32,000 nt of DNA, from assembly GCA_001552015.1 (NCBI GenBank), contig CP010514.1, positions 270,001 through 302,000 of the forward strand. The letters run 5' to 3'. The number at the start of each line of letters is the position of its first letter. The stretch's first letter is position 1. Of this stretch, positions 87 to 29,822 are shown piece by piece. The notes beneath the pieces were generated by a model. That model was not told the DNA's origin, searched no databases, and was given only the letters and a program-made list of their open reading frames with translations. The stretch comes from Candidatus Nanopusillus acidilobi (GTDB lineage: Archaea; Nanobdellota; Nanobdellia; Nanobdellales; Nanobdellaceae). Both the position numbers and the translations under genes were made by a program.

Positions 87-545
87 ATGACTGTTTTGAG
101 AGAATATGAATATGAAGATCATACTGCAGATATAAAGATTGTTGGTTACGGGAATACACCAAAGAGAGCAATTGAGGCATTAATATTGGGAATGTTTAAT
201 ATTATATATGATAATGAGAAAGTTGAGAAAAAAGAATCGAAACAATTTATAATTGAAGGAAAAAATATATTAGAAATTATATATAATGTTGCTAAAATAT
301 GTTTAGAGGATGTTTTTTATAAAGATAAGTTTGCTGTAAGAGATATAAGAGTAAAAAATTTAAAGAAAGTTAGAGTTGAAAGCAAGAAATATAAATGGGT
401 ATGTAGATTTGAAGTTTATGGAGAGAAATATGATAAAGAAAAGCATGGATTTAAAAAAGAAGTTAAAGCAGTCACTTTACATGATATAAATATTACAAAA
501 ATAATGAAAACCTATTGGAGTACAGAAATTGTTGTTGATGTCTAG
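87..545 (+). CDS. Archease
   Basis: 152 aa. The N-terminal YEYEDHTADIKIVGYGNT matches the archease signature (hTADi.i.a.G), and the size is typical for the family. Confidence 0.8.
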   Translation: MTVLREYEYEDHTADIKIVGYGNTPKRAIEALILGMFNIIYDNEKVEKKESKQFIIEGKNILEIIYNVAKICLEDVFYKDKFAVRDIRVKNLKKVRVESKKYKWVCRFEVYGEKYDKEKHGFKKEVKAVTLHDINITKIMKTYWSTEIVVDV

Positions 546-1420
546 CTTTCTTGTTCTTTTTTAGCTTCAAAATATTTATACAATGGTATGTTTCCAATTA
601 AATAATATAATAGATCTAATATTATTGCAATAGATAATACAAATGCAAATTCATCAACAGATGGTTCTGGTACTATAAAATATAATAAAAGTAATGTGTA
701 TAATGCGATAATCTCCATTAGCATTCCAACTCTAAATGACATTCTTACTCTTTCAATAAATGGTTTATCTTTTTCCTTTACTATATTTGTTGATAATACT
801 ACATTATTATCAATTGCAAATCCTAGAATCATTAACATTCCAATAAATCCATTTGCTCCTATAGGATATTTTGTTATAGATAATATTGCTAACAATCCAA
901 TAATATCAAATAATATTGTAGATATTATATTTAGGGTAATCCTAGAAGCTCTAAATGCTATAAATATTACAAATGCTGTAAGTACTATTGCTAAAAATAC
1001 GAAAAATAAAAATTGATTAAATATAAGATTACCTACTAAAGAACTATAATGTTGTATTGATATATCTGTAGGTAGCAAACTAATATTATAATCTTGATTT
1101 AATAAATTAATTAATAATGTTTCATTTATTTGATTTCCAGATTCAATATAAATAATATTTGGTGTATTATATAATACATAATCTGTTATATTCATTTGAT
1201 TCAATGCATTTTGTATTTCTGAATTTGTTATATGATAATTATTATTTATTAATGTTACATAACCTCCAGAAATTGTAATAGATTTATTAATTATATATCC
1301 ATATTTAAAATAATTGAATAATATTATTCCAGCAAATATTACAAATATTACTATGGAAATTAATAGAAACTTCTTATAATTATTTTCTATAAATGATAAG
1401 ATCTTCATTAATAGGCTCAT
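542..1420 (-). CDS. secF: Protein-export membrane protein SecF (SecD/SecF family)
   Basis: 292 aa with an N-terminal TM segment, an extracytoplasmic domain of about 100 aa, and a C-terminal TM bundle. The motif LMILGFAIDNNVVLSTNIVKEK resembles the SecD/F motif (GysiddnIV..dri.e). The size fits archaeal SecF. No secD is adjacent. Confidence 0.65.
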   Translation of the reverse strand: MSLLMKILSFIENNYKKFLLISIVIFVIFAGIILFNYFKYGYIINKSITISGGYVTLINNNYHITNSEIQNALNQMNITDYVLYNTPNIIYIESGNQINETLLINLLNQDYNISLLPTDISIQHYSSLVGNLIFNQFLFFVFLAIVLTAFVIFIAFRASRITLNIISTILFDIIGLLAILSITKYPIGANGFIGMLMILGFAIDNNVVLSTNIVKEKDKPFIERVRMSFRVGMLMEIIALYTLLLLYFIVPEPSVDEFAFVLSIAIILDLLYYLIGNIPLYKYFEAKKEQES

Positions 1421-1435
1421 TTTTTACATATTCTT

Positions 1436-1451
1436 AAAAAAATATATAAAC
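1436..1451 (+). promoter_or_regulatory. BRE/TATA-like element (AAAAAATATATAAAC)
   Basis: An A-run followed by ATATATAAA ends 24 nt before the ATG at 1474, in the 53-nt divergent spacer between secF and the surface-protein operon. Confidence 0.45.
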
Positions 1452-1473: not shown

Positions 1474-3291
1474 ATGAGATCATTTAACTATTTAGTAGAA
1501 ATAATATTGACCGTATCTTTAATATTGGTATTCTTAACAAACTTACAATTTCCTCAAAGTCCTTCATATTATATAAATTCATTTAATAAAAAATATACAT
1601 TATATACAGCTTTAGCAAATACTTATAATAATAAATTTCTTAGTTTTTTAGAAACAAATCAATTCGATGTATTGGCTTCAATATATAATAGTATGCTATC
1701 AAATTATTTCAATAGTTATGATTTAAAACAAACGATAGATTATAGTTTAAATTTTTATAATACTTATAATTCAACATGTTATGAATTCTTATTTCCATTT
1801 CCATATCTTGGAAACAATTTATTATATTCATTAAATATAAGTGAGCAGGTTAATAACTTTTTCTTAATATATAATTCTCAAGGAAAAATATGTGGAAATA
1901 TTGCATCAAGTGATGATTGGTATGGAGTAATAATATCTAGTTATTCTAGTAATAATTTATCTATATATTTAAATTTAACAAATGTAACAAGTTTTGTTAA
2001 TTATACTATTGATCCATATTCATTTTATGCATATAATAATGATTTATATCCAATACAAATTCAATATTTAAATGTATCATATGTTAATACATCTAATGGA
2101 TATATTCCTTTAATAAATATATCATTAAATTTGCCAAATGGATATAGTCAACCAATAATAATATTATTTAGGGCTGAAAATAATAATTTTAATTATTTAA
2201 ATTTAACAAACAATTATCAATTGGTAAATAATTTACCTGCTCAATTAGTACAATATGCTGTATTTCCATTTAGTTGGGAAACATTATATATTTCTCCTCA
2301 ATGTTTAGATCAATCTAATGTTATATCATTTACAAATAATAATCAATATTTTAATTTAACAAATTCATCATATTATCCTCCTGTACTATCTGGAAATACT
2401 TCAATAACAGTTGTTGCCTGGATTTATATAAATAGTTATTATTCTTCTTCTTGTGCTGATGGAGAAAATTATATAAGTGCAATAGTTCATTTACCTGGAT
2501 TAAATGATTATGCTGGCTCTACATTTAGACAGATTATAATACCAAATAATGGCCAATATTATTTGGGAATAGACGAAAGTTATGATGTTGGATATTTACC
2601 AAATTATCTCTTACCAATGGATCAATGGGTATTTGTTTTTTGGGAATATAATAATAGTAATGGACAATTTTATGGAGGATTTATAAATCAAAGTGGAATA
2701 TACTATGGTCAATTGGTACCTTATCCTGGTTATTCATCTTTACAACCTTTAAATTTATATTATCCACCAAATGAAACATTATATTTAGGAACCCCTACAA
2801 CAATGTATTCTCCTCAATGTACATTTTTAGGAAATATATATGTAATTGCATTTTACAATCAACCATTAACAATAAATCAGTTAGAAAATATATATTATTC
2901 AGAAGATTTTAATTATTATAATCCAGTATTAATTTATTATAGCAAAAATTATAACCCAAGTACGGGAATATTATATGGAAATGGGCCAAATTATAATATG
3001 CAAGCATATAATAATCCTCAATCTATAAATTTTGTAAAACCATATTCTCAATTAATAATAGATTATTCAATCCCTCCAAACTATCAGAATAATATATTAT
3101 CTTCAAATATAAATATTAGCCAATGTTATCCTGTAAATGTTTATTATTCAAATCAATTAATACCAATAATATTGTATAATTATTGGAATTATTTTAATGT
3201 AAATCCAGTACCAAGTGGATATAAATATAGTAGCAGTATAGTTTATCCATATGGCTTAGGATATTCTAAATTCTCTGTATATGGCTCGTAG
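1474..3291 (+). CDS. Membrane-anchored Asn/Tyr/Ser-rich surface protein with a LamG (concanavalin-A-like) domain
   Basis: 605 aa with an N-terminal anchor MRSFNYLVEIILTVSLILVFL. I counted about 17 N-x-S/T sequons by eye, and there are almost no charged residues. ITVVAWIYINS...WVFVFWEY...LYLGT...TFLGNIYVIAFYNQPLTINQLENIY matches the LamG/Laminin_G_3 pattern (f.G.id.vriYn.aLs..ei). Confidence 0.6.
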   Translation: MRSFNYLVEIILTVSLILVFLTNLQFPQSPSYYINSFNKKYTLYTALANTYNNKFLSFLETNQFDVLASIYNSMLSNYFNSYDLKQTIDYSLNFYNTYNSTCYEFLFPFPYLGNNLLYSLNISEQVNNFFLIYNSQGKICGNIASSDDWYGVIISSYSSNNLSIYLNLTNVTSFVNYTIDPYSFYAYNNDLYPIQIQYLNVSYVNTSNGYIPLINISLNLPNGYSQPIIILFRAENNNFNYLNLTNNYQLVNNLPAQLVQYAVFPFSWETLYISPQCLDQSNVISFTNNNQYFNLTNSSYYPPVLSGNTSITVVAWIYINSYYSSSCADGENYISAIVHLPGLNDYAGSTFRQIIIPNNGQYYLGIDESYDVGYLPNYLLPMDQWVFVFWEYNNSNGQFYGGFINQSGIYYGQLVPYPGYSSLQPLNLYYPPNETLYLGTPTTMYSPQCTFLGNIYVIAFYNQPLTINQLENIYYSEDFNYYNPVLIYYSKNYNPSTGILYGNGPNYNMQAYNNPQSINFVKPYSQLIIDYSIPPNYQNNILSSNINISQCYPVNVYYSNQLIPIILYNYWNYFNVNPVPSGYKYSSSIVYPYGLGYSKFSVYGS

Positions 3292-4729
3292 TCAATTATA
3301 TTTATATACAATTGTTGTATTATTATTAATTTTATTTTATTTTGTTTCTAATTTAGATTTATTAGATAAAGAATTTCAGTTTTATTCAGATACTTATCCT
3401 CAATATGGAGAAATATATAAATTATTATATGGAAATGATATATTTGAAAATATATTAAATTTGTATGGATCTACATTAATTCCATTTACTGTTTATTATA
3501 ATTGTTCATATAATATTATACAAGTTCCAAATTATTTTAATTCAACACATGTAATTGTAGTAGATAATGTTTATAATGTATTACCTTCATATGCATCAAA
3601 TAATTTTGTAGTATTTAAAATAATAGATAATTATTCTATAAGTTCTTCTAGTACTGGATATTGTATATTTAATGGATATGAAGTATATAATCCATATTTT
3701 AATAATCAATTTGAAGGAACTGGTAATTTGCCATATTATGTTGTATTTTATCCACAAAGTATATTTACTATAAATGATAATTATTTAAATAATTTATATA
3801 ATTTGGAAGAAAATGTGATTTTTCAATATTTGAATAATTATAAATGTATTGCTGGAGAAATAAAGTCTTTAAGTGTTCAGAAAATATTAAATGGAATTTC
3901 TGTGAACTTTTTAAATATATCAAACGCTCAATTGAATAATAATATAATATCAGTAAATATTACTAATAATGATATATGTCCAATTGATTTAAATAAGATA
4001 TATTATGATAATTATAATATACCATCATTTGGAAATAATTTTAATACATCTTCTAATAGTTATTTAATTTATCCAGGTCAGCAAATTGTTGGATATTATC
4101 AATATAATAATGATGATTTATATTTTTGTTTAGAATCTTTAGGTAATGAGATATGTACACCAATTAATAATTTATCAATACAATATTATGTTCCAATAAC
4201 ATTATATAATTCTCAACCCATTCCAACTCCCGAACCTTTCCAACAAGATATAGCAATATGTAATGGAACAATTAATATTGGTAATAATTTTGCATATGTA
4301 AATAATATAATATTATTTAATCAAATTAATTCAAATGGACAAAATGTAATGTTCTTTAATCCAAATAACGGACAATTATTTTATTCATGGTATGAAGGTC
4401 AATTAGTTAATGGAAATACATATTGTGATGTATGGTGGGTAAATATTCCAAATGGAATACCTGCTAATGGTAATTTTGTAATTTATATGGCGATTGGAAG
4501 TTATAATACAAACTATTATTCTCAATATTATACATATGTTGGTGCACCTATACAAGTTTTAGGTACTTCTCAATATGATAATGGTAATTATGTATTTAAT
4601 TATTATCAAAACTTTGGAAATTTAAGTTCATTACCTCCAAATTGGGCATATGTGTGTGGTAATCAGTATAGTGTTTCTTTTTCTACAAATTATACAATTA
4701 TTCCGCCTACTACTTCAATGGGTTTATAA
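3281..4729 (+). CDS. Membrane-anchored surface protein, DUF2341-like domain plus the start of a ConA/LamG-like domain (N-terminal part of a frame-broken gene)
   Basis: 482 aa with anchor MARSQLYLYTIVVLLLILFYFV. Its start overlaps the upstream stop (ATGGCTCGTAG). YYVPITLYN...NVMFFNPNNGQLFYSWYEG...DVWWVNIPNGIPANGNFVIYMAIG fits the DUF2341 pattern, and YDNGNYVFNYYQNFG begins a ConA-like domain. The ORF ends in tandem stops TAA TGA in mid-domain. Confidence 0.6.
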   Translation: MARSQLYLYTIVVLLLILFYFVSNLDLLDKEFQFYSDTYPQYGEIYKLLYGNDIFENILNLYGSTLIPFTVYYNCSYNIIQVPNYFNSTHVIVVDNVYNVLPSYASNNFVVFKIIDNYSISSSSTGYCIFNGYEVYNPYFNNQFEGTGNLPYYVVFYPQSIFTINDNYLNNLYNLEENVIFQYLNNYKCIAGEIKSLSVQKILNGISVNFLNISNAQLNNNIISVNITNNDICPIDLNKIYYDNYNIPSFGNNFNTSSNSYLIYPGQQIVGYYQYNNDDLYFCLESLGNEICTPINNLSIQYYVPITLYNSQPIPTPEPFQQDIAICNGTINIGNNFAYVNNIILFNQINSNGQNVMFFNPNNGQLFYSWYEGQLVNGNTYCDVWWVNIPNGIPANGNFVIYMAIGSYNTNYYSQYYTYVGAPIQVLGTSQYDNGNYVFNYYQNFGNLSSLPPNWAYVCGNQYSVSFSTNYTIIPPTTSMGL

Positions 4730-5243
4730 TGATGGTATTACTACTATAGTAAACTTTACTATGCAAAATAATATATTACAAATCTATGTTTCTATTCCAA
4801 CTACTAGTGGTACAATGTGGGACATTATAGATTTAGGAGTAGGTGGAACAAATCCACCAACTGGAAATACGTATTTCGGCAGTGGTGGAGGGATTGTTTC
4901 TGGTGGTAATAGTTATGGTGCCGCATTTTCATATAATAATATAGGAACCGCTGGTGAGTTTAAATTATTTGTAGGAACTTCTAATGTAGGAAGTACACCA
5001 TATAGTTATGTTCCAACAATATATGAAATTGGATTTTCTAGTAGTTATACTTATTTCTTAGTAAATTATACTCAAATATTAAGTACTACAACAATACCTG
5101 GTTCATTTAGTTTACCAATAACAGTAGCGCAACAGCAATCAGGTAATAATATATACTTATATTGGGTTTTATTAAGATCATTGCCACCAAATGATGTAAT
5201 GCCTTCAATTTCTATAGGATCTGAAAGTTCCTGGCCGCCTTAA
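4650..5243 (+). CDS. C-terminal continuation of the 3281..4729 surface protein (rest of the ConA/LamG-like domain), in the +1 frame
   Basis: The first ~25 codons of the tracked ORF are hydrophobic junk overlapping the upstream ORF. From YNDGITTIVNF onward the composition matches the upstream protein. It ends NNIYLYWVLLRSLPPNDVMPSISIGSE, which resembles the usual C-terminal strand of ConA-like domains (..DWVrvRky...P.vs.G.e). The real coding part probably starts near 4725-4731. Confidence 0.5.
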   Translation: MCVVISIVFLFLQIIQLFRLLLQWVYNDGITTIVNFTMQNNILQIYVSIPTTSGTMWDIIDLGVGGTNPPTGNTYFGSGGGIVSGGNSYGAAFSYNNIGTAGEFKLFVGTSNVGSTPYSYVPTIYEIGFSSSYTYFLVNYTQILSTTTIPGSFSLPITVAQQQSGNNIYLYWVLLRSLPPNDVMPSISIGSESSWPP

Positions 5244-18981: not shown

Positions 18982-18995
18982 TTTTTTAGCAATTT

Positions 18996-21536
18996 TTAAG
19001 ATACGCTTATTATATAAGGTACTCCATAGGTTGCTATTATCCAATTTAGATACATAAATCCCGATCCCCCTCCAGAACCTGTTGAAATAAATAAATAAGG
19101 TATCCCAACATAATTGTTAAGGTTATCTACCAAATGTCTTACTCTAAATCTCTCTCCATTATTATATTCTTCAAAGGATCCAAATGTTCCAGGTACGAAG
19201 TTTCCATTTGTATCGTTAGGAGTAAAATAATAATAATTAATCAAAGTCCTTTGATAATTTACAGGTTGATTAAACGCCGTATTATATGCATTTATGTATG
19301 ATTGTACAAATATTGGTTCTCCCGTTATTGTACTTATATTTCCAGGAGGTGCTGGTGGTATTGCAAGTGCCTTATGACTACAACCCCATCCACAACTCCA
19401 ACTATATGGTTCTGAAGCAAGAGAATAATTGAAAATGTTTCCATTCATTAAGAAAAATATATTCATATTACTATTTTCATTATTATTTTCTGGCTGGAAC
19501 CAATTATACATCCAAAACACTCCATATTGAGAATAATGATTATTATTTTGCTGATCTGGAGGTATAAAGGCAAAATAATTTGATCCTCCATTTTGTCCGT
19601 ATATCTTTCCATTATTATCTTCTAAGAAATAATAATTGAGATTCCAACCAAAAGAAGAAGGATTCCAACTAAAATACCATCCAGATCCTGAATAATAATA
19701 ATCATAATATCCACTTGGATTTAGATTATTTGTATATTGAGTAGTTAAGAAATATCCTAATCCTAATGTATCACTATATTGCAATATTCCAACATAATAT
19801 CCTGAAGAATAGCCTGGACCTGGACCACCAAATGCCCATGCATATTCATACATAAATATTGGGAAATTAAGTGGTAAATATGTATCACCTCCAACATTTA
19901 TTCCTATATTTTGATTTCCTACAGGAGCACATCCTCTAAGACCATGTATACAGTTCGTTGTTGAATCTTTATAATTATAATCATTTACTGTATCAGCTTG
20001 GAATTGATTATTATAACTAACATATGATAATACTACAGCAGCTGAAACATATGGAGTTGTAACAGTACCCGGAGTATCTTCCCATGGTATTCCAGAAAAA
20101 TATGCAAATGTTTGTAATCCCAATCCATTTTGTGATTGAGATAATTGATTAAAAGTCTTTTGTAAAACATTTGATGTAATTAATGCATAAGATCCCTGAT
20201 TTGTCCCATTATCCATCATTAGTCCTTCGAAATATTCATTTGATATAATTTGTGGAATAATATTTGTTCCATTTACATAAATACTTATATTATTATACGT
20301 AGGTAATACATCACTAGATTGATTATTGATAAAACATGCTGTGTATCCATTATTACAGGATATTTCTTTTTCTTCTATATTTCCATTATATGGATAAAAG
20401 TTAACATATATTGGAAATACATTCAATCCATTATCATAAATAGTTGCATTAGAAGCATTATTTGGATCTAATGCATAAGGATCACCACCAATTGTTCCAT
20501 TTAAATATGATAATAGACTTTCATTACTAAATCCAACAAATATTGATATAATATTACAACCAAAATTACTATTATATAATGAAGGAATATTTAATAGATT
20601 AATAAAGAAATAATAATTTCCCTCACTATCTTGACCAGCATACCATGAAGGTAATGCATAATATTTACCATCATAATTAACTAAAAATACAACATTACTC
20701 CCAAAATATGGATATGCTTGAATATAATCACTTAAAGGAGGACCAATTGTAACTAATATATTTTGGAAATCTTCCATAGAATATCCTCCATTATTTGATA
20801 AAGGTATAGCTAAATATGTTCCATTAACTATTTCTATATTATTTACTGTATAATCATAATATTGAGTATTTGGATAAGAATTTCCTAATAAAGATATTGC
20901 TGGAGTTATATTTATATATTCAGGTTCACTTAAATAGTAATATTGTATACTTTGACTATTTCCTGACACTGGTTCACATAATATACAAAAATATGCAAAA
21001 CTACCTGCCTGATATTCTAAAACATTATTTCCAACAATTTTACATTCATATGTATTTTCATTATATGTATATATAACATCATTTCCTTCAAAAGTATTAT
21101 TTGATAGATTAATTATAGATTCTAATTCAACATCCAATGAATTTATATCAAATGATGTTGAATTAGTATTTGTTATATTTGGAGGATTTATTTGTAATAA
21201 ACTACCACTACTACTACTAGTATAAGTATTTGTAATATTATAAAATATACTCCAATTACTTAGATTTTCAATAAATGATGGAACATAATATATATCAAAT
21301 CCATTCTGATAATATATATTTACCATAATTGTTGAATTTATTGTATTCTGATTACTGTTTTGATTATTTTGATTGTTTTGATTCAGTATTGAAATATAAT
21401 ATTGTGATGGATTATTAATATGGTAGAATTTAAATATTGAAGTTAAAACAAATATAACTCCTGCAAGAACTATAATAAATATTGGAAGATAATATCCTAT
21501 AAACATCATAAGATCATCAAAAATTTTTCCCCTCAT
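18996..21536 (-). CDS. Very large membrane-anchored Asn/Tyr/Ser/Gly-rich surface protein with DUF2341-like and ConA-like signatures
   Basis: 846 aa with an N-terminal anchor (FIGYYLPIFIIVLAGVIFVLTSIF) followed by an (NQN)n linker and many N-x-S/T sequons. NVVFLVNYDGKYYALPSWYAGQDSEGNYYFFINLLNIP...ISIFVGFSN...YDNGLNVFPIYVNFYP parallels the DUF2341-plus-ConA pattern of the 3281-5243 gene. The C-terminal FMYLNWIIATYGVPYIISVS resembles the ConA-like terminal strand. Confidence 0.6.
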   Translation of the reverse strand: MRGKIFDDLMMFIGYYLPIFIIVLAGVIFVLTSIFKFYHINNPSQYYISILNQNNQNNQNSNQNTINSTIMVNIYYQNGFDIYYVPSFIENLSNWSIFYNITNTYTSSSSGSLLQINPPNITNTNSTSFDINSLDVELESIINLSNNTFEGNDVIYTYNENTYECKIVGNNVLEYQAGSFAYFCILCEPVSGNSQSIQYYYLSEPEYINITPAISLLGNSYPNTQYYDYTVNNIEIVNGTYLAIPLSNNGGYSMEDFQNILVTIGPPLSDYIQAYPYFGSNVVFLVNYDGKYYALPSWYAGQDSEGNYYFFINLLNIPSLYNSNFGCNIISIFVGFSNESLLSYLNGTIGGDPYALDPNNASNATIYDNGLNVFPIYVNFYPYNGNIEEKEISCNNGYTACFINNQSSDVLPTYNNISIYVNGTNIIPQIISNEYFEGLMMDNGTNQGSYALITSNVLQKTFNQLSQSQNGLGLQTFAYFSGIPWEDTPGTVTTPYVSAAVVLSYVSYNNQFQADTVNDYNYKDSTTNCIHGLRGCAPVGNQNIGINVGGDTYLPLNFPIFMYEYAWAFGGPGPGYSSGYYVGILQYSDTLGLGYFLTTQYTNNLNPSGYYDYYYSGSGWYFSWNPSSFGWNLNYYFLEDNNGKIYGQNGGSNYFAFIPPDQQNNNHYSQYGVFWMYNWFQPENNNENSNMNIFFLMNGNIFNYSLASEPYSWSCGWGCSHKALAIPPAPPGNISTITGEPIFVQSYINAYNTAFNQPVNYQRTLINYYYFTPNDTNGNFVPGTFGSFEEYNNGERFRVRHLVDNLNNYVGIPYLFISTGSGGGSGFMYLNWIIATYGVPYIISVS
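21357..21383 (-). repeat. 3 x 9-bp in-frame tandem repeat encoding (NQN)3
   Basis: The plus strand reads GTTTTGATT ATTTTGATT GTTTTGATT. It lies inside the 846-aa gene and encodes the NQNNQNNQN linker after the membrane anchor. Confidence 0.7.
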
Positions 21537-24700: not shown

Positions 24701-25396
24701 TTATGATAAAGAATATATTTGATCAATTACTTTGCTAACTTCTTCAAGATCTTTTATACTATCTATTGATTTCCAATAAATATCTTTATAAATAACACCC
24801 TTTATTTTTCTTTCTTTAGCGAGTTCTGGAAAAGTATGTACTTCAATATCACCTTTATCTGGTAAATAATTATATATTTCTTTATTAAAAACATAAATTC
24901 CCGCATTAATTAAATAATCTAATAATGGCTTTTCTTTAAATTCTGTTATATAATTTTCTTTATCAATTTGAATTATTCCATATGGACTTCTCATTTGTAC
25001 TAAAGCAATTGATGCAATAACATCTTTATTTATATTTTCTATTAAAGGTTTTAGTGAAAGATTTGTAATTATATCTCCATTTAATACAATAAATATATCT
25101 TCATCAATATATCTCATTGCTTTTTTAATAGCTCCTCCAGTTCCCAAAGGTTCTTCTTCAACACTATAATATATTTTTACTCCAAATTTAGAACCATCAC
25201 CTATAGTTTCAAATATCTTAGATTTTAAATATCCTACAGCTAAAACAATTTCTTTTATATTTTGTTTAATTAACCATTCTATTTGCCATTGTAAAATTGG
25301 TTTATCTTTTATTTCTATCAATGGTTTTGGTTTTTCTAAAGTTAATGGAATTAATCTTTTACCATATCCACCTGCAAGTATTATTGCTTTTACCAT
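24701..25396 (-). CDS. Sugar-1-phosphate nucleotidylyltransferase (NDP-sugar pyrophosphorylase, short form)
   Basis: 231 aa. KAIILAGGYGKRLIPLTLEKPKPLIEI is the G-x-G-x-R-L nucleotidyltransferase signature. Sugar specificity cannot be determined from the sequence. Confidence 0.8.
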   Translation of the reverse strand: MVKAIILAGGYGKRLIPLTLEKPKPLIEIKDKPILQWQIEWLIKQNIKEIVLAVGYLKSKIFETIGDGSKFGVKIYYSVEEEPLGTGGAIKKAMRYIDEDIFIVLNGDIITNLSLKPLIENINKDVIASIALVQMRSPYGIIQIDKENYITEFKEKPLLDYLINAGIYVFNKEIYNYLPDKGDIEVHTFPELAKERKIKGVIYKDIYWKSIDSIKDLEEVSKVIDQIYSLS

Positions 25397-25580
25397 AAAT
25401 AAGTAATAGTTTATAATAACTTAAGTGTTTATCAGAGCTTTTGCATATAGTGACAACTTATTTAATAAAATGTTATATTTGTTAAGAGATTATTAAAAAT
25501 AATTTTTACATAAATTATTTAGAAAATTATTCAAAAATTATTTTAGAAATATATACATAGATTTAAATATCAAAATGTCT

Positions 25581-25595
25581 AAAAATTTATAAAAC
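25581..25595 (+). promoter_or_regulatory. BRE/TATA (AAAAATTTATAAAAC) for the glycosyltransferase operon
   Basis: The TTTATAAA core (25586-25593) ends 23 nt before the ATG at 25616. Confidence 0.5.
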
Positions 25596-25615
25596 TTTTT
25601 TATCTTCAATAGTTA

Positions 25616-26665
25616 ATGAAAATTGCTTTATATGGTATATCACATTTATCTGATAATAGAGGCTATGAAAAATGGATAATAAAAGTTGCATCTTATTTAT
25701 CTAAAAAGTATGATGTTAGAGTTATAACTACTAATGCTAATAAAAAATATGATTTAAATAATTTAAATTTTGAATATATAGTAATTGAGCATAAGAAAAG
25801 ATTTGGTTTATTGCATGATATAAGTGAAATAAAAAATTATCTAAAAGATACGGATATAACATATGCATTTTATGTTTGGTTTGGAACGCAAATTGATATA
25901 TTAAAATATTCAAAAAAAGTTATTTTCGGACATCATTCTCCTTTGGATAAACCTATTCAAAGAATTTATTATTCTTTATTAGAAAATATAATTGCCAGAA
26001 AAATAAAATATTCCTATCATCATTTTTTAACCGAATATAGAGCAAATATATATAGAAAAAGGGGTTTTAAGAAAATATTTATAATTCCGAATTTTGTTGA
26101 ATTAGATAAATATAAACCAAAGGAAAAAAGCTATGATAAATTTAAGATAATTTGTCCAGGTGTTATTAATATACTAAAAGGAATAGATATTTTAATAAAG
26201 GTTGCTGAAACTTTAAAGAAATATAATGATATAGAATTCTATATCGCCGGTAATAAGCCAATATATAATAATTTACCATCTAATGTTAAATATTTAGGAA
26301 TGTTAAATGAAGATGAATATGCTAATTTTATAGGTATAGCTAATTTAATGTTTTTACCTACAAGGATTGAAACATTTTCATTTTCTGTATTAGAAAATTT
26401 AGCAGTAGGAAATCCTGTAGTTGTATCAAATTTACCAGATGTAATTAGTGCATTTGGAGAATCTGAATCAATTTATTATGCAAAACTTAATAATGTAAAA
26501 AATTATATTAATGGAATATTAAAATATTATCAAATATGGAAAAATAATAAGGATAAATATGAAGAATTATCTAAAAAAGCCAGAGAAATTGCAAGTAAAT
26601 TTGATTCGAATATAATATTGCCAAAAATAGAAGAGATGTTTAAGAAAGTTTATGAATCTTCATAA
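25616..26665 (+). CDS. Glycosyltransferase, GT4 (group 1) family
   Basis: 349 aa with a GT-B layout. The E-x7-E motif is ETFSFSVLENLAVGNPVV. Confidence 0.75.
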   Translation: MKIALYGISHLSDNRGYEKWIIKVASYLSKKYDVRVITTNANKKYDLNNLNFEYIVIEHKKRFGLLHDISEIKNYLKDTDITYAFYVWFGTQIDILKYSKKVIFGHHSPLDKPIQRIYYSLLENIIARKIKYSYHHFLTEYRANIYRKRGFKKIFIIPNFVELDKYKPKEKSYDKFKIICPGVINILKGIDILIKVAETLKKYNDIEFYIAGNKPIYNNLPSNVKYLGMLNEDEYANFIGIANLMFLPTRIETFSFSVLENLAVGNPVVVSNLPDVISAFGESESIYYAKLNNVKNYINGILKYYQIWKNNKDKYEELSKKAREIASKFDSNIILPKIEEMFKKVYESS

Positions 26666-26677
26666 TTATTTTTTATT

Positions 26678-27865
26678 ATGAAAATTTTATTATTTCATCC
26701 ATGGTTAAAATCAAAAGGTGGTGCAGAAAGAGTTGTTTATGAATACTATAAAAGATCTAAACATAAAATAAAGATATTAACTTGGAATTATATTAAAGAA
26801 AAAACTTATGATTTTAAAGAAGAAGATATAATTAGTTTATATGATAAAAAATATGAAAGAATATTTAGAGGATATTTAATTAGAGGTGGATTTTCATTAT
26901 TAAATTTATTAATAAAATATGAAATTGATAATTTTGATTTGTTATTAATATCTACAGGTGGTATTGCAGAATTAATATTAACAAATCAAAATTTTAATAT
27001 ATCAAAAGTTACATATAATCATACAATTTTGAGGGCTGCATATAAATATGATATCTATTGGAACATTAAATATAGATTTAGAAAATATTATTATTTACCT
27101 TATAAAGTAGCTCTGAATGTTTATAATTATTTAGAAAGAAAAGCTTGGAAGAAAATAGATTTTGCAATATTTAATTCAGAACTATCTAAAAAGAGAGCAT
27201 TAGATAAAAATTTAATAGATAAAGAAAAAACAGATGTTATATATCCTGGTGCAGATTTGTCAAATTTTTATAATGATAATCCGGAAGATTATTTCTTATA
27301 TGTAGCAAGAATTGGGTTATCAAAAAGACAAGATATATTAATTAAAGCATTTGCAAAGTTTATTAAAAAATATTCAGAATATAAATTATATTTAGTTGGA
27401 AATGTTGAAAATAAAAAATATTACTTAAAAATATTGAAACTAATTAAGCATTATAATTTACAAAATAATATAAAATTATATTCAAATTTATCCGATGAAA
27501 AATTAAGAGAATTATATGCAAAATCTTTGGCATGTATCTATATACCATATATGGAAGATTTTGGAATAGTTCCTTTAGAATCATTAGCTGCTGGAAAGTA
27601 TTTAATTAATGTTTATCCTTCTGGAAGTTATGAATTATTAAAGAATGCACACGGAATTTATTGGATAAAAGAAAGATTTTATGAAGAACCTATGATTAAT
27701 GAAATATATAACTCATTAGAATATTTTGTTAAAAATAAAGATGAATTAATAGAAAAAGGAAAAGAAAATATAGAATTTGTTAAAAAATATGATTTATCAT
27801 GGGAAAGATTTACAAAAGAATTGGATAATAAACTTAAAGATATTTTAGAAAATATAAATAATTGA
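26678..27865 (+). CDS. Glycosyltransferase, GT4 (group 1) family
   Basis: 395 aa. It has MKILLFHPWLKSKGGAERV and the E-x7-E motif EDFGIVPLESLAAGK. Confidence 0.75.
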   Translation: MKILLFHPWLKSKGGAERVVYEYYKRSKHKIKILTWNYIKEKTYDFKEEDIISLYDKKYERIFRGYLIRGGFSLLNLLIKYEIDNFDLLLISTGGIAELILTNQNFNISKVTYNHTILRAAYKYDIYWNIKYRFRKYYYLPYKVALNVYNYLERKAWKKIDFAIFNSELSKKRALDKNLIDKEKTDVIYPGADLSNFYNDNPEDYFLYVARIGLSKRQDILIKAFAKFIKKYSEYKLYLVGNVENKKYYLKILKLIKHYNLQNNIKLYSNLSDEKLRELYAKSLACIYIPYMEDFGIVPLESLAAGKYLINVYPSGSYELLKNAHGIYWIKERFYEEPMINEIYNSLEYFVKNKDELIEKGKENIEFVKKYDLSWERFTKELDNKLKDILENINN

Positions 27866-27935
27866 TAATTGATTTCTATTAGTATAATGATACCTTTATA
27901 TATTTAAAAAATTTTTTTCAAAAAATTTTACAATA

Positions 27936-28895
27936 ATGAATGAAATAAGAAAGATATTAATTGCACCTAAAGTGATATATAATTCAAGGAAAATAATTAA
28001 AAATATATATTCAAGTTTATATCAATATTTAATTTTAAAAAAGCAAAATATTAAATTAAAATTAAGAAACGGAGAAACCATAATAGTACCTAGATCTTTT
28101 TATCCTAAAATAATATATTATTATTACTTGGGATATATTGCTGATATTAGCAAAGATGGAATATATTTTAAAGTAAATAATAAAACTTTTCAAGTACCTT
28201 TTAAAGAAATCGAACTTATGAGATTTTGGCGTATAATTAAATTAGGGTGGTTCTATAATAATAATTACTGGGAGAAAAATAACATAAAATTTAAGCATGC
28301 ATATAGTTCAATATATGATGTTTTTGAAAGCGAAGATTATAAATTTCTTAATGTTCAAAATAAATCGATATTAGATATAGGAGCCTTTGTAGGAGATTCA
28401 TCAATATATTTTATTCTAAAAGGTGCTAAAAAAGTATATGCAATTGAACCACATCCAGATGCCTATAAAGAAATGATAGAAAATATAAAATTAAATAATA
28501 TGGAAAATAAAATTATTCCAATAAATGTAGGAATAAGTTATGAAAAAGATTATATATTTATTCCTGTAACAACAGTAAGTACGCAAGATACATTATTAAA
28601 ATCAGAAGGTAATGGTATTAAAGTACCCGCAGGTAAATTAAGAGATATTATTGATAAATATAATATAGATGCACAAATATTAAAAATGGATTGTGAAGGA
28701 TGCGAATATAATATAATTTTGAAAGATTATGATACTATAAAAGAATTTGATGAAATTGGATTTGAATATCATGCTTATAATACTAAAATACCTGTTAGTA
28801 AATTAATAGAAAAATTAAATAAAGATTTTGAATGTAAGATTATAAAAGAGAAATCGAAAGATATAGGGTTAGTATATTGTATAAGAAAAAAATAA
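27936..28895 (+). CDS. FkbM-family SAM-dependent methyltransferase with an N-terminal extension
   Basis: 319 aa. DIGAFVGDSSIYFILKGAKKVYAIEPHPDAYKEMIENIKLNN and KMDCEGCEYNI match the FkbM family pattern. The first ~140 aa are unassigned. Confidence 0.7.
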   Translation: MNEIRKILIAPKVIYNSRKIIKNIYSSLYQYLILKKQNIKLKLRNGETIIVPRSFYPKIIYYYYLGYIADISKDGIYFKVNNKTFQVPFKEIELMRFWRIIKLGWFYNNNYWEKNNIKFKHAYSSIYDVFESEDYKFLNVQNKSILDIGAFVGDSSIYFILKGAKKVYAIEPHPDAYKEMIENIKLNNMENKIIPINVGISYEKDYIFIPVTTVSTQDTLLKSEGNGIKVPAGKLRDIIDKYNIDAQILKMDCEGCEYNIILKDYDTIKEFDEIGFEYHAYNTKIPVSKLIEKLNKDFECKIIKEKSKDIGLVYCIRKK

Positions 28896-28925
28896 ATTTA
28901 AATCTTTATTTTATATTTCTTTTTT

Positions 28926-29822
28926 ATGAAAGCTTCAGTAATAGTAATGGATTATTTAAGAAAAAAATATATTCTAGATGCATTAAAAAGTATTAAAAAT
29001 CAGAAAGAAATTGATTTAAATGATATTGAAATAATTGTTGTAAAATATTATCAAGATGAAAAAATAGATAATTATATTAAAGAAAATTTTCCTAATTATA
29101 AGATAATAAATTTAGATCCAAATGGTCCAGATCGTTATATTGGTAGTGAACTTGCTATAGGAATAAAAGAGGCTTCTAGTAATTTAATATTCTTATTAGA
29201 TGATGACGATATGTTTACCGAAAATAAAATTAGTAGAATATTTGAGGTTGTAAAAAATATTAAGTATGATGAATATGTAATTTGGAATAAGGCTATAATA
29301 ACTCAAGATTTAAAAAGTAGGCCATTAAAAAAGTCAGAGCACAAACATATATATAACAGCAGTAGCATAGTTCTAAATATTAAAGATAAAGATAAATTAA
29401 TAGATTATATAAGAAAAATATATTATGCTGTAGATCGAGCTCTTTTATGCTATTTTAAAGAAAAAATTATAAAATTGAATGATTCATTAACTTACTATAG
29501 AAGATTCGGAGAAAACACAAGTATTAGATTTAGTAGACAGATGTTGGAAATGAATTTACAAGATTTTCAATATATTTATGAAAAAACAAAATGTAAAAAT
29601 ATAATAGATAGGATAGTAAATTTTAAAATTAAATTAAATACTATGTATAACGCTAATTATAAAATATCATTAAAAGAATATATAGGAGGTTTATTACTAT
29701 TTGATGAAGATTATATTAAGAGATTATCAGTGATTATTTTATATAAATTATTTAGAAATTATCTAAAAAAATATTATTTGAAAACATATACTTTTACAGA
29801 TCTAAATGTACAAAATGAATAG
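28926..29822 (+). CDS. Glycosyltransferase, GT2 family
   Basis: 298 aa. ASVIVMDYLRKKYILDALKSIKNQ and the LLDDDD (DxD) motif are typical of the GT-A fold. Confidence 0.7.
   Translation: MKASVIVMDYLRKKYILDALKSIKNQKEIDLNDIEIIVVKYYQDEKIDNYIKENFPNYKIINLDPNGPDRYIGSELAIGIKEASSNLIFLLDDDDMFTENKISRIFEVVKNIKYDEYVIWNKAIITQDLKSRPLKKSEHKHIYNSSSIVLNIKDKDKLIDYIRKIYYAVDRALLCYFKEKIIKLNDSLTYYRRFGENTSIRFSRQMLEMNLQDFQYIYEKTKCKNIIDRIVNFKIKLNTMYNANYKISLKEYIGGLLLFDEDYIKRLSVIILYKLFRNYLKKYYLKTYTFTDLNVQNE

What the first reader, a model, noticed from the sequence alone, without database searches (positions are those of the whole stretch)
1474..5243. Operon of giant Asn/Tyr/Ser-rich, sequon-dense, membrane-anchored beta-sandwich proteins: candidate uncharacterised surface or host-contact module
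- Two translationally coupled genes (start and stop share ATGGCTCGTAG), the second broken into two ORFs, encode proteins of 605 and about 650 aa.
- Each begins with a 2-4 residue n-region and a hydrophobic anchor (MRS-FNYLVEIILTVSLILVFL; MARS-QLYLYTIVVLLLILFYFV).
- Their composition is almost free of K/E/D/R, in sharp contrast to the K/E-rich cytoplasmic proteins around them.
- I counted about 17 N-x-S/T sequons by eye in the first protein alone.
- The first protein matches the LamG pattern (TFLGNIYVIAFYNQPLTINQLENIY). The second matches a DUF2341-like module (NVMFFNPNNGQLFYSWYEG...DVWWVNIPNGIPANGNFVIYMAIG) followed by a ConA-like domain (YDNGNYVFNYYQNF ... IYLYWVLLRSLPPNDVMPSISIG).
- A third protein with the same module order lies at 18996-21536, and a glycan-synthesis island lies in the same window.
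- Inference: in a reduced, probably ectosymbiotic archaeon, heavily N-glycosylated lectin-fold proteins tethered to the membrane are plausible adhesins or S-layer-associated host-contact proteins. No function is established for this combination.
Basis: partly seen in the sequence, partly recalled or inferred. Interest (0 to 1): 0.7.

Follow-up and report, generated by a model that had tools for sequence, protein, structure and literature searches.

The report
Nanoarchaeal surface lectins sharing viral heads
Two co-expressed, membrane-anchored lectin-fold surface proteins of the hot-spring ectosymbiont Nanopusillus acidilobi; the second one's swappable outer half-domain is also found in a structural protein of rod-shaped viruses that infect related host archaea, which makes it a strong candidate host-recognition device.

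Summary
The window comes from Candidatus Nanopusillus acidilobi. Gene A (1474-3291, Nps_01540) and gene B (3281-5243, Nps_01545 plus Nps_01550) overlap by 11 nt. Each has a single N-terminal hydrophobic anchor and very few charged residues.

B is split by one extra base at 4720-4725. Orthologues are intact (653 aa). A second homopolymer insertion at about 7377 suggests an assembly error.

Structure prediction supports a LamG fold in A. It supports a DUF2341 plus concanavalin-A-like jelly roll in B.

New findings:
- A and B are older nanoarchaeal core proteins (343 and 288 aa in Nanoclepta, same secF synteny). They gained lectin domains by insertion (A) and C-terminal fusion (B).
- B's module of about 340 aa recurs in a multicopy family with pilin, Sec or other N-termini. 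It also occurs in other acidophilic DPANN archaea.
- Its distal half of about 190 aa is replaced as a discrete 600-bp cassette between near-identical strains.
- The module is homologous to the C-terminal half of the conserved rudivirus structural protein. Distal-half types are shared between virus and nanoarchaeon at 46-69% identity, against 30-40% for the conserved half.

Best reading: these are host-surface adhesins with exchangeable receptor-binding heads. The function is inferred, not shown.

The parts
1440..1449 (+). A/T-rich TATA-like box (aaatatataa), 25-34 nt upstream of the ATG of gene A, in the 53-bp divergent intergenic region shared with secF
   Evidence: Read directly from the sequence. 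Promoter function is inferred and was not tested.
542..1420 (-). secF, the divergent neighbour. Its position next to the A-B pair is conserved across Nanopusillaceae and in Nanoclepta.
   Evidence: Pfam SecD_SecF_C, E 1.3e-15. The synteny appears in L001, L003, L004 and L086.
1474..3291 (+). Gene A (Nps_01540), 605 aa. It has an N-terminal anchor and the A-core, with a LamG domain inserted.
   Evidence: 100% identical to P0001. Only 24 relatives were found among 1.84 billion representative proteins.
1474..1551 (+). N-terminal anchor of A, MRS-FNYLVEIILTVSLILVFLTNL. A basic residue and then a small residue precede the helix, and a conserved Glu lies inside it.
   Evidence: It is the only hydrophobic segment in A. 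The motif M[KR][SGAT]-[FLI]xYx[VI]E[IL]IL is kept in distant relatives.
2335..3051 (+). LamG-type beta-sandwich (aa 288-526) inserted into the A-core. It is the most divergent part of A between strains.
   Evidence: Fold: AlphaFold and Foldseek. Insertion: relatives of 334-365 aa match A 1-287 and the C-terminal tail but lack this part. Divergence: dS is 0.11-0.18 here against 0.02-0.03 in the core, with dN/dS 0.22-0.24.
3281..3291 (+). 11-nt overlap ATGGCTCGTAG between the start of B and the stop of A
   Evidence: Sequence. The same 11-nt overlap occurs in Nanobdella (L001) and Nanoclepta (L086).
3281..5243 (+). Gene B (annotated as Nps_01545 plus Nps_01550). It encodes 653 aa once one base is removed.
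   Evidence: Intact orthologues: P0022 at 653 aa and 93% identity, L003 at 666 aa, L001 at 648 aa.
3281..4168 (+). B-core (aa 1-296): the anchor MARS-QLYLYTIVVLLLILFYFV, a region the model could not predict, and a small beta domain (aa 205-300)
   Evidence: Homologous to the whole 288-aa Nanoclepta protein, which also starts MARSQ (31% identity, E 2e-27). The model has pLDDT 80-89 over aa 205-300.
4169..4588 (+). Conserved (DUF2341) half of the module. Motifs: ITLYNSQ..PTPEPFQQDIAICNG, CDVWWVNIP, YxYVG, QYDNG.
   Evidence: Pfam DUF2341 scores above its cut-off in orthologues and paralogues. Invariant columns are listed. The same motifs occur in SIRV8 ORF44.
4589..5162 (+). Variable distal half of the module (about 190 aa), here 'type 1'. 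It is replaced as a cassette between strains.
   Evidence: Window against L003: 96-100% nt identity over 6 kb, except about 4560-5160 at 42-45%. The types cluster independently of the N-terminal architecture. A viral counterpart, L090, is 41-46% identical.
4720..4725 (+). Site of the one-base insertion (GGGTTT) that splits B in this assembly
   Evidence: Alignment to L004. Removing one T restores the ORF. A similar homopolymer insertion at about 7377 breaks another gene.
5163..5243 (+). Conserved C-terminal strand and tail YLYWVLLRSLPPNDVMPSISIGSESSWPP
   Evidence: R632, P635, P636, N637, M640 and P641 are invariant in 88 family members. Rudivirus proteins carry the same PPNGVMPS motif.
18996..21536 (-). 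Gene C, 846 aa: a distant relative with an N-terminal anchor, a DUF2341-like stretch and a similar C-terminal strand. It is not the same architecture as A or B.
   Evidence: 31% identity to B over 127 aa, E 2e-5. No similarity to A. It has 45 homologues, the best at 79% identity.
24701..31392 (.). Glycan-synthesis gene cluster: a possible sugar supply for surface glycosylation
   Evidence: Pfam NTP_transferase, Glycos_transf_1 (two genes), FkbM methyltransferase, Glycos_transf_2 and PGM_PMM.

Best explanation
A and B are a co-expressed pair of extracellular proteins of the nanoarchaeal cell envelope. Each is held in the membrane by an N-terminal helix, with the N-terminus inside and the rest outside.

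Both derive from an older nanoarchaeal two-gene unit beside secF. In the Nanopusillus/Nanobdella clade each gained a lectin-type head. A took a LamG domain as an insertion. B took a DUF2341 plus jelly-roll module of about 340 aa at its C-terminus.

The heads most likely bind a structure on the host cell surface, such as an S-layer glycan or a pilus. This would mediate or tune attachment.

The module has a conserved proximal half and a distal half of about 190 aa that comes in discrete types. These types are moved by recombination between the B locus, a multicopy family of paralogues (pilin-fused, Sec-secreted and others), and the structural protein of rudiviruses that infect Sulfolobales. The distal half is therefore the probable specificity determinant.

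Shown: the gene structure, the folds (predicted), the domain history, the mosaicism, the viral homology and purifying selection.
Inferred: the topology, glycosylation, ligand binding and a role in host recognition.
For: Identity and synteny:
-.

Surface location (inferred):
- One N-terminal hydrophobic segment, a basic N-terminus, and a composition unlike the cytoplasmic neighbours.
- The published annotation gives 1 TM for each protein.
- N. acidilobi has an AglB-like gene, and wheat germ agglutinin labels its surface.

Folds:
-.

Domain accretion:
- Nanoclepta has A-core (343 aa) and B-core (288 aa) in the same secF context with the same 11-nt overlap and no lectin domains.

Module family:
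- 296 protein hits. There are four N-terminal architectures, including UpsA-like pilin domains (E 3e-18).
- 260 loci in species genomes. Copies are multiple in Nanobdella and YN1, and relatives at about 30% identity occur in Micrarchaeota and Parvarchaeota.

Cassette:
- A 600-bp segment is unalignable inside 6 kb of 96-100% identity.
- B orthologues carry at least 5 types, each also found behind other N-termini.

Viral link:
- All 12 hits among 50,697 virus records are Sulfolobales viruses.
- The rudiviral gene is the conserved 'structural protein' and follows a 1058-aa gene that I take to be the tail-fibre (ORF1070-type) gene from its size and position. I did not test that identification.
- B against SIRV8 ORF44: 30% identity, E 3e-17, with shared motifs.
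- Conserved half: 72-90% identity virus to virus, 66-76% nanoarchaeon to nanoarchaeon, 30-40% across the two.
- Distal half: 63% (SIRV8 to P0122), 69% (L092 to P0129) and 46% (L090 to P0067) across the two, but only 25-34% between types within either lineage.
- At nucleotide level, 66-75% for the distal half against 59% for the conserved half.
- P0122 lies next to a tRNA synthetase gene on a cellular contig.

Selection:
- dN/dS is 0.14-0.48 throughout.
- dS is raised 2- to 6-fold in A's LamG domain and in the conserved half of B's module, which points to imported alleles.

Literature:
- Rudivirus termini mediate host recognition (PMC7911016; bioRxiv 10.1101/2020.01.16.907410).
- External proteins of Yellowstone Nanoarchaeota carry excess non-synonymous SNPs (PMC6142677).
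- Lectin-like proteins have been proposed as host-recognition factors in Nanobdella (bioRxiv 10.1101/2023.10.27.564410).
Against: - There is no direct evidence of expression, localisation, glycosylation or binding.
- Neither protein was detected in the published proteome. That is expected given 2 and 4 usable tryptic peptides.
- The window's own B scores nothing in Pfam, and A's LamG hit is below the cut-off.
- Model confidence is moderate (mean pLDDT 61-65), and B residues 27-205 are unpredicted.
- The role of the rudiviral DUF2341 structural protein in host binding has not been established. The literature read here proposes ORF1070 as the fibre protein that binds host pili (PMC7911016).
- N. 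acidilobi's own host is Acidilobus, not a Sulfolobales species.
- A-core and B-core exist without lectin heads in Nanoclepta, so the primary function of the pair may be something other than adhesion.
- B is frameshifted in this assembly.
Confidence: 0.55

Rival explanations
1. Pilus-type display. [quoted passage not shown] A prepilin peptidase would cut them after the [KR]-[S/G/A/T] pair. The nanoarchaeal TadC/ATPase pair would then assemble them into a short fibre or pilus tip that carries the lectin heads. This resembles the DUF2341 proteins of the Methanococcus Epd pilus locus.
For: - Paralogues carry the same module behind genuine archaeal pilin N-termini (MKS-ISPIIATIL...). These match TIGR02537 at 29 bits against a cut-off of 20, match UpsA at E 3e-18, and match Pilin_N in 15 of 88 members.
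- A and B have the same [KR]S junction directly before the helix. In distant A relatives the residue before the helix is always small (S, G, A or T), and a Glu is conserved inside the helix.
- DUF2341 proteins lie in Methanococcus type IV pilus loci. There they are predicted to be tip adhesins, and one is needed for transformation (PMC4858521, PMC10133366).
- Nanoarchaea have pilus ATPases for which no cognate pilins were found (PMC4858521).
- N. acidilobi has Nps_02245 and Nps_02250, and the ATPase is detected in the proteome.
Against: - No pilin or class III model matches A or B.
- The A model shows several short helices after the anchor, not a long pilin helix packed on a sheet.
- The profile comparison of B-core with the pilin domain gives only E 0.03 over 27 columns.
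- No pilus genes lie next to the A-B pair, and the one paralogue locus I inspected (P0119) had none either.
- The Glu sits at +6, not +5, if cleavage follows the small residue.
Confidence: 0.2
2. Envelope housekeeping. The A-B pair would be a structural component of the nanoarchaeal envelope, for example an S-layer anchor or spacer, or a Sec-associated factor. Its lectin heads would bind the cell's own surface glycans rather than the host.
For: - A-core and B-core are conserved beside secF from Nanopusillus to Nanoclepta, with the same overlap and without lectin domains.
- Purifying selection acts throughout.
- The cell surface carries GlcNAc-containing glycans.
Against: - Self-binding does not explain why the distal half is swapped between near-identical strains.
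- It also does not explain why the same types circulate in viruses of the host lineage.
- The predicted S-layer protein of N. acidilobi is a different gene, Nps760.
Confidence: 0.15
3. Enzyme. The jelly-roll module would be a GH16-like glycoside hydrolase that cuts host S-layer glycans at the contact site.
For: Foldseek hits to GH16 beta-glucanases and laminarinases are as strong as the hits to lectins (E 4e-6 to 1e-4).
Against: - The GH16 catalytic motif E-x-D-x-(x)-E is absent. Only 2 of 88 members match it, and in a non-conserved place.
- The only conserved acidic columns (D323, E372, D383, D433) lie in the DUF2341 half.
- The half that would carry an active site is the one that is freely replaced.
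Confidence: 0.04
4. Decay. B would be a pseudogene in this strain, and the locus a remnant without a present function.
For: B is split by a frameshift in the reference genome and is annotated as two genes.
Against: - More than 30 orthologues are intact.
- dN/dS is 0.19-0.45.
- A second one-base homopolymer insertion in the same window breaks a conserved nucleotidyltransferase gene. The assembly is a MiSeq plus PacBio RS II hybrid. An assembly error is therefore the simpler reading.
Confidence: 0.05

Closest known systems
Conserved rudivirus structural protein. It is annotated 'DUF2341 domain-containing protein' in the SIRV1, SIRV2 and SIRV3 RefSeq records and 'structural protein' in the SIRV3 GenBank record, ARV3, SSRV1, MRV1 and SMRV1. 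It is ORF44 in SIRV8.
   Same: - The C-terminal 310-340 aa form the same module as in B, with the same start motif (ITxxNSQ..PTPxPFQQ), internal motifs (YPYxG, QYDNG) and end motif (YWxxxRxxPPNGVMPS).
- The same two-part behaviour is seen: a conserved proximal half and a distal half that is replaced between close relatives. SIRV8 against L092 gives 90% and 31% identity for the two halves.
- Individual distal types are shared with nanoarchaeal proteins at 46-69% identity.
   Different: - The N-terminal 250 aa of the viral protein are unrelated to B-core.
- The viral protein has no membrane anchor and is a virion component.
- Its role in adsorption is not established.
- A has no viral relative.
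DUF2341 proteins of archaeal type IV pilus loci (arCOG03508; the M. maripaludis epd-locus protein MMJJ_08210). They are predicted pilus-tip adhesins by analogy with PilY1.
   Same: - They contain a DUF2341 domain and are large proteins with an N-terminal hydrophobic segment.
- They occur as a pair of large genes.
- They have a predicted adhesin role (PMC4858521, PMC10133366).
   Different: - The A-B pair is not in a pilus locus.
- A has no DUF2341.
- No direct sequence comparison with the Methanococcus proteins could be made here.
Lectin-like N-terminal-anchor proteins proposed as host-recognition factors in cultivated DPANN archaea (Nanobdella aerobiophila MJ1_0179; Nanohalobium constans LC1Nh_0399-0401 and 0423)
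   Same: - Same idea and same general build: an N-terminal helix, a concanavalin-A-like sandwich and many sequons, in an ectosymbiont (bioRxiv 10.1101/2023.10.27.564410).
   Different: - That paper does not name the Nanobdella orthologues of A and B in its text (I searched the main text only, not its tables).
- Neither the cassette exchange, the core-plus-head history nor the viral homology appears in the papers I read. Two full-text searches that paired rudiviruses with Nanopusillus or Nanoarchaeota returned no papers.
L-type lectin domains (Emp47p, ERGIC-53, VIP36) and LamG/LNS domains (neurexin, agrin, PAPP-A, pentraxins)
   Same: Predicted fold. The TM-score normalised to the target is 0.55-0.70 for B and 0.5-0.6 for A.
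   Different: Sequence identity is 9-15%. Sugar- or calcium-binding residues were not examined. These are eukaryotic proteins with unrelated biology.
Receptor-binding-domain swapping in phage tail fibres
   Same: A conserved attachment part with an exchangeable distal part, and mosaicism between close relatives.
   Different: Here the exchange pool spans viruses and a cellular ectosymbiont. No diversity-generating retroelement or invertible cassette was seen.

Membership tests
Laminin_G_3 / concanavalin-A-like superfamily (protein A) | Match to the Pfam model above its gathering score | tested here: not met
   PF13385 scores 17.4 bits against a cut-off of 27.6, E 0.005, over residues 290-400.
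Laminin_G_3 / concanavalin-A-like superfamily (protein A) | Two-sheet jelly-roll beta-sandwich superposable on LamG/LNS domains | tested here: met
   The AlphaFold model has pLDDT 80-94 over residues 260-530. Foldseek hits neurexin, agrin, pentraxin, PAPP-A and legume lectins with probability 1.0 and E 3e-7 to 1e-3. This is a predicted structure, not a solved one.
DUF2341 (PF10102) (protein B) | Match to the Pfam model above its gathering score of 23.4 bits | tested here: inconclusive
   The window's B and P0022 give no hit. Orthologues P0035 (27.9 bits) and P0040 (26.4 bits) and paralogue P0094 (51.5 bits) pass. In all, 26 of 88 aligned family members hit the model. Membership therefore holds by homology, not by the window sequence's own score.
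Concanavalin-A-like jelly roll (module of B) | Fold similarity to L-type lectins or GH16 enzymes | tested here: met
   Foldseek hits Emp47p, ERGIC-53, VIP36 and GH16 at E 2e-6 to 2e-4. The TM-score normalised to the target is up to 0.70.
GH16 glycoside hydrolases | Catalytic motif E-x-D-x-(x)-E on the concave sheet | tested here: not met
   The motif is absent from B. It appears in only 2 of 88 family members, at a non-conserved site.
Archaeal type IV pilins / class III signal peptide proteins | N-terminus recognised by the pilin or archaellin N-terminal models (TIGR02537, Pilin_N) | tested here: not met
   A and B give no hit. Paralogues such as P0119 do hit (TIGR02537 at 29 bits against a cut-off of 20; UpsA at E 3e-18).
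Archaeal type IV pilins / class III signal peptide proteins | A basic residue and then a small residue immediately before the hydrophobic helix | tested here: inconclusive
   A orthologues read M[RK][SAT]-F and B orthologues read M[AV]RS-Q. Distant A relatives read KS-F, RS-L, RRS-I and RG-L. This fits the pattern, but it also fits a plain signal anchor.
Archaeal type IV pilins / class III signal peptide proteins | Cleavage by a prepilin peptidase and assembly by a TadC/ATPase machine | not testable with these tools
   The published gene table lists a TadC-like gene and an ATPase (Nps_02245, Nps_02250). It names no prepilin peptidase.
DUF2341 adhesins encoded in archaeal type IV pilus loci | The gene lies inside a pilus gene cluster | tested here: not met
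   The neighbours are archease, secF, an RNase P subunit, a kinase and tRNA synthetases. The one paralogue locus I inspected (P0119) stands alone among housekeeping genes.
Rudivirus DUF2341 structural protein | Full-length homology to the viral protein | tested here: not met
   Only B residues 306-642 align with viral residues 252-566. B-core has no viral match.
Rudivirus DUF2341 structural protein | Shared C-terminal module with its hallmark motifs | tested here: met
   30% identity, E 3e-17, with the same start, internal and end motifs. Foldseek against predicted viral structures gives E 1e-23 to 1e-17.
Archaeal S-layer protein | Identity with the predicted S-layer gene of the organism | tested here: not met
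   The published candidate is Nps760. Candidates in relatives are MJ1_0160 and YN1_5000. None of these lies at this locus.

The most novel reading that the evidence does not exclude
The distal half of about 190 aa of the DUF2341/jelly-roll module is a horizontally exchanged receptor-binding cassette. It is shared by rudiviruses and by ectosymbiotic nanoarchaea that attach to the same thermoacidophilic crenarchaeal hosts. Viruses and cellular ectoparasites would then draw on one pool of host-recognition heads. The cassette type carried at the B locus and its paralogues would help set the nanoarchaeon's host range, and perhaps its competition with viruses for receptors.
Probability: 0.35. Interest if true: 0.85.

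Novelty: new variant of a known kind. Interest (0 to 1): 0.68.

Why it matters
How nanoarchaea and other DPANN ectosymbionts recognise their specific hosts is an open question. No adhesin has been identified experimentally. This locus and its paralogue family offer concrete, testable candidates:
- a defined head domain of about 340 aa;
- a distal half of about 190 aa that comes in discrete types;
- natural swaps between otherwise near-identical strains.

The same head types occur in a conserved virion protein of rudiviruses, so two separate problems become linked. One is what the rudiviral DUF2341 structural protein does. The other is what nanoarchaeal surface lectins bind. A single binding experiment with matched virus and nanoarchaeal heads could inform both.

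If the exchange is real, it would also be an unusual case of gene flow between viruses and a cellular symbiont that share a host. It concerns exactly the part of the protein expected to touch that host.

Tried and rejected
- Pfam and NCBIfam scans of A, B, C and the neighbouring protein D gave almost nothing for the window sequences themselves.
- The profile of the B family matched no solved structure by sequence.
- A, B and C are not all one family. A shows no similarity to B or C.
- The profile comparison of B-core with the pilin globular domain was not significant (E 0.03). I therefore did not claim that B-core is pilin-like.
- The GH16 enzyme idea was rejected on the missing catalytic motif.
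- Positive selection was rejected as the cause of variability. dN/dS is below 0.5 everywhere, and raised dS points to recombination.
- Sequon enrichment beyond composition was rejected for B and is weak for A and C.
- Proteome absence was examined and judged uninformative.
- A search for pilus genes next to the A-B pair and next to the one paralogue locus inspected (P0119) found none.
- P0056 and P0168 could not be located on contigs.
- A and C have no relatives in the virus collection.
- Two full-text literature searches that paired rudiviruses with Nanopusillus or Nanoarchaeota found nothing.

Full report
**Origin and observation**

- The window is part of the Candidatus Nanopusillus acidilobi genome. 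Gene A (1474-3291) is 100% identical to Nps_01540.
- G+C is about 21-24%.
- A's stop and B's start overlap in ATGGCTCGTAG.
- A, B and C (18996-21536) each have a single hydrophobic segment at the N-terminus and none elsewhere.
- Charged residues make up 6-8% of these proteins, against 30-34% in the tRNA synthetases nearby.
- A has 17 sequons, exactly as counted. Shuffles of the same composition give 12.3 +/- 2.8. B is at expectation (12 against 13.1). The density therefore follows from the Asn/Ser/Thr-rich composition.
- Such a composition, low in charge and rich in polar residues, is what I would expect from general knowledge for extracellular proteins at pH about 3.6 and 82 C. The published paper makes the related point that the predicted S-layer protein lacks tryptic sites.

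**The frameshift**

- Against an intact 653-aa orthologue from an N. acidilobi metagenome-assembled genome (P0022, 93% identity), the window has one extra base. It reads CAATGGGTTTATAATG against CAATAGG-TTATAATG.
- Removing one T restores a 653-aa ORF.
- The published annotation lists the pieces as Nps_01545 and Nps_01550.
- I found a second one-base insertion, in a T-run at about 7377. It splits a 248-aa nucleotidyltransferase gene that is intact in four related genomes.
- The genome is a MiSeq plus PacBio RS II hybrid assembly.
- Two homopolymer insertions in 32 kb point to assembly error rather than biology, but only the reads can settle this.
- Population data say the gene is functional. 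More than 30 orthologues are intact, and dN/dS is 0.19-0.45.

**Folds**

Protein A:
- Pfam gives A only a sub-threshold Laminin_G_3 match.
- An AlphaFold model built on 21 orthologues is confident (pLDDT 80-94) over residues 260-530.
- That region matches neurexin LNS, agrin, pentraxin, PAPP-A LamG and legume lectin structures.

Protein B:
- I modelled the intact orthologue P0022 with 88 family members.
- Residues 27-205 are unpredicted. Residues 205-300 form a small, confident beta domain.
- Residues 300-650 give a jelly roll. It matches the lectin domains of Emp47p, ERGIC-53 and VIP36, and GH16 enzymes.
- DUF2341 scores above the Pfam cut-off in B orthologues P0035 and P0040. It is found in 26 of 88 family members.
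- The GH16 catalytic motif is absent.

**History of the two genes**

- A is rare. A profile search of 1.84 billion representative proteins found 24 hits.
- Besides orthologues in Nanopusillaceae, there are proteins of 334-365 aa that match A 1-287 and A's C-terminal tail (ending ...YGS) but lack the middle. These come from Nanoclepta minutus, NZ13-N and other nanoarchaeal genomes.
- In Nanoclepta the 343-aa protein sits in the same place, after archease and divergent from secF.
- It is followed, with the same 11-nt overlap, by a 288-aa protein that starts MARSQ. That protein aligns with B 1-292 (31% identity, E 2e-27) and ends exactly where B's module begins.
- So A is an old core with a LamG domain inserted (aa 288-526). 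B is an old core with a lectin module fused to its end.
- What the cores do is unknown. They match no Pfam or NCBIfam family.

**The module family**

- B's C-terminal 340 aa run from ITxYNxQ..PTPxPFQQ to RxxPPNGVMPS. They form a unit that occurs once or twice per protein in a large family of 296 hits.
- The unit follows at least four kinds of N-terminus:
  - B-core;
  - a genuine archaeal pilin N-terminus with an UpsA-like domain (E 3e-18; TIGR02537 above its cut-off);
  - an MRLQSE-type anchor;
  - a Sec signal peptide.
- A scan of one genome per species found 260 relatives. Copies are multiple in Nanobdella aerobiophila and strain YN1.
- Full-module relatives at about 28-32% identity occur in Micrarchaeota, Parvarchaeota (including ARMAN-5) and a few other archaeal bins.
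- The one paralogue locus I inspected (P0119) stands alone among housekeeping genes.
- This expansion stands out in a lineage noted for very low paralogue density (PMC3655853).

**The cassette**

- The window and a metagenome contig (L003) are 96-100% identical over 6 kb. The exception is about 4560-5160, where identity falls to 42-45%, meaning the sequences are unalignable.
- This is a discrete replacement of the distal half of the module, not gradual divergence.
- Clustering the distal halves gives a few types. Each type occurs behind several N-terminal architectures, and B orthologues carry at least five types.
- The window's type (type 1) is rare at the B locus but common in paralogues.
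- A's LamG domain also shows a local excess of synonymous divergence: dS is 0.11-0.18 against 0.02-0.03 in the core, with dN/dS 0.22-0.24.
- The conserved half of B's module shows the same: dS is 0.18-0.24 against 0.07-0.09 in the core, with dN/dS 0.20-0.29.
- I read both as imported alleles under purifying selection.

**The viral link**

This was unexpected.
- A Foldseek search of predicted viral structures gave hits far stronger than any to solved structures. These were an unnamed 1311-aa protein (37% identity over 372 columns, E 1e-23), a Sulfolobus ellipsoid virus 1 protein (E 5e-19) and a DUF2341 protein of Sulfolobales Beppu rod-shaped virus 1 (E 1e-17).
- By tblastn, all 12 matches among 50,697 virus records are viruses of Sulfolobales: rudiviruses SIRV4, SIRV8, SIRV11, SBRV1 and ARV2, and the bicaudavirus SMV2.
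- In rudiviruses the gene is the conserved protein annotated 'structural protein' or 'DUF2341 domain-containing protein'.
- In SIRV8 and in contig L090 it lies two genes after a 1058-aa gene. From its size and position I take that gene to be the tail-fibre (ORF1070-type) gene, but I did not test this.
- B and SIRV8 ORF44 align over the whole module (30% identity, E 3e-17) with the same hallmark motifs.
- The viral proteins show the same two-part behaviour. SIRV5, SIRV6 and SIRV7 match SIRV8 at 79% over residues 1-369 and not at all beyond.

Identity by segment:

| Comparison | Conserved half | Distal half |
|---|---|---|
| Virus to virus | 72-90% | 25-31% between types |
| Nanoarchaeon to nanoarchaeon | 66-76% | 26-34% between types |
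| Virus to nanoarchaeon, not type-matched (SIRV8 to P0022) | 32% | 28% |
| SIRV8 to P0122 (same type) | 38% | 63% over 193 aa |
| Viral contig L092 to P0129 (same type) | 40% | 69% over 180 aa |
| Viral contig L090 to P0067 (window's type) | 32% | 46% |
| Viral contig L090 to P0022 (window's type) | 30% | 41% |

- The conserved half therefore tracks lineage, while the distal half tracks type.
- At nucleotide level the distal halves are 66-75% identical, against 59% for the conserved halves.
- P0122 is cellular. It lies beside a class II tRNA synthetase gene on a contig from the same metagenome as L003.
- P0129's pilin domain is 80% identical to that of a protein from a Nanopusillus genome bin.
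- The simplest account is horizontal exchange of distal halves between rudiviruses and nanoarchaea. Whole modules might instead have moved repeatedly, with later homogenisation of the conserved half. Either account needs recombination across the boundary between virus and cell.

**Mechanism**

- Shown: the gene pair, the overlap, the anchors, the predicted folds, the accretion history, the mosaic structure, the viral homology and purifying selection.
- Inferred:
  - Both proteins are exported by the Sec system and stay anchored with the N-terminus inside.
  - They are N-glycosylated. An AglB-like gene and a glycan-synthesis island exist, and lectin staining shows surface GlcNAc.
  - Their heads bind a host surface structure, and the distal half sets specificity.
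- The inference rests on four things: the fold class, the recurrence of the module on pilins, its use by viruses that must bind related hosts, and the pattern of discrete replacement typical of receptor-binding parts.
- It agrees with published population data showing excess non-synonymous variation in external proteins of Yellowstone Nanoarchaeota (PMC6142677). It also agrees with the proposal that lectin-like proteins mediate host recognition in Nanobdella.
- Caveats:
  - The role of the rudiviral protein in adsorption is not established, and the literature proposes ORF1070 as the pilus-binding fibre (PMC7911016).
  - N. acidilobi's host is Acidilobus, whereas the matching viruses were isolated on Sulfolobus.
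  - The cores exist without heads in Nanoclepta.

**Rivals**

- Pilus-type display is attractive. The supporting points are the pilin-fused paralogues, a [KR]-small junction before the helix, a conserved Glu in A's anchor, DUF2341 proteins in Methanococcus pilus loci (PMC4858521, PMC10133366), and nanoarchaeal pilus ATPases without known pilins.
- Against it, no pilin model sees A or B, the locus has no pilus genes, and the profile comparison was not significant.
- An envelope-structural role for the cores is plausible, but it does not explain the swaps or the viral sharing.
- An enzymatic role is unlikely. Decay is unlikely.

**Comparison with what is known, and novelty**

- Lectin-like surface proteins have been proposed as DPANN adhesins. 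DUF2341 proteins have been predicted to be archaeal pilus adhesins.
- Four things did not turn up in the literature I searched and read (the library is incomplete):
  - the core-plus-head history of this conserved operon;
  - the family-wide modular architecture;
  - the discrete cassette replacement;
  - the sharing of head types with rudivirus structural proteins.
- I rate it a new variant of a known kind. Its interest comes mainly from the link between virus and symbiont and from the experiments it makes possible.

Noticed in passing
window 6934-7681 (minus strand), insertion at about 7377: A conserved 248-aa nucleotidyltransferase gene (NTP_transf_2/Polbeta) is split into two overlapping ORFs by one extra T in a T-run. 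It is intact in L001, L003, L004 and L086. This is a second homopolymer insertion in the same window and suggests indel errors in the reference assembly.
   Followed up: yes
window 18996-21536 (gene C); L085 6001-7494: C's C-terminal 520 aa are 39% identical (E 9e-75) to a protein in the chromosome of Sulfurisphaera ohwakuensis YN1HA, the host of nanoarchaeon YN1. The host copy lacks the N-terminal third and lies near IS605 and resolvase genes. Further homologues at 60-66% identity sit in Stygiolobus assemblies, where they may be co-assembled nanoarchaeal contigs. This may be gene transfer between host and symbiont.
   Followed up: partly
window 18001-20000: G+C rises to 0.31-0.335 here, against about 0.21 elsewhere. 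The rise covers gene D (18091-18981) and the 3' half of gene C, the part that is homologous to the host protein. It could reflect foreign origin or the Gly/Pro/Ala-rich composition.
   Followed up: partly
window 18091-18981: Gene D encodes 296 aa with one internal hydrophobic helix and is convergent with C. It gives only a weak, sub-threshold GH11 jelly-roll match (E 0.058). Its function is unknown, and no homologue search was run for it.
   Followed up: no
window 2335-3051 (LamG part of gene A): Between near-identical strains this part has 4- to 6-fold higher synonymous divergence than the rest of A, and it differs by a 6-aa length change (599 against 605 aa). It looks like allele import by recombination, in parallel with B's module.
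   Followed up: partly
BFVD entry A0A5P9U552; also E3T5D0 of Cafeteria roenbergensis virus: An unnamed 1311-aa viral protein matches the whole B module at 37% identity (E 1e-23), closer than any rudivirus protein. Its virus could not be identified with the tools at hand. A giant-virus DUF2341 protein also matches (E 7e-12).
   Followed up: no
L088 3107-7798 (Sulfolobus monocaudavirus SMV2 gp11): The module also lies inside a 1563-aa protein. That protein is encoded between a 'virion structural protein' gene and, one short ORF further on, the 'major head protein' gene of a tailed spindle virus. The module is therefore not restricted to rudiviruses.
   Followed up: partly
window 24701-31392: A glycan-synthesis cluster is confirmed: a sugar nucleotidyltransferase, two GT1, an FkbM-type methyltransferase, a GT2 and a phosphomannomutase/phosphoglucomutase. 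An EamA transporter lies at 22723-23154.
   Followed up: yes
window 1440-1449: A TATA-like box lies 25-34 nt upstream of A's ATG in a 53-bp divergent intergenic region. This would be compatible with a leaderless or short-leader transcript.
   Followed up: no
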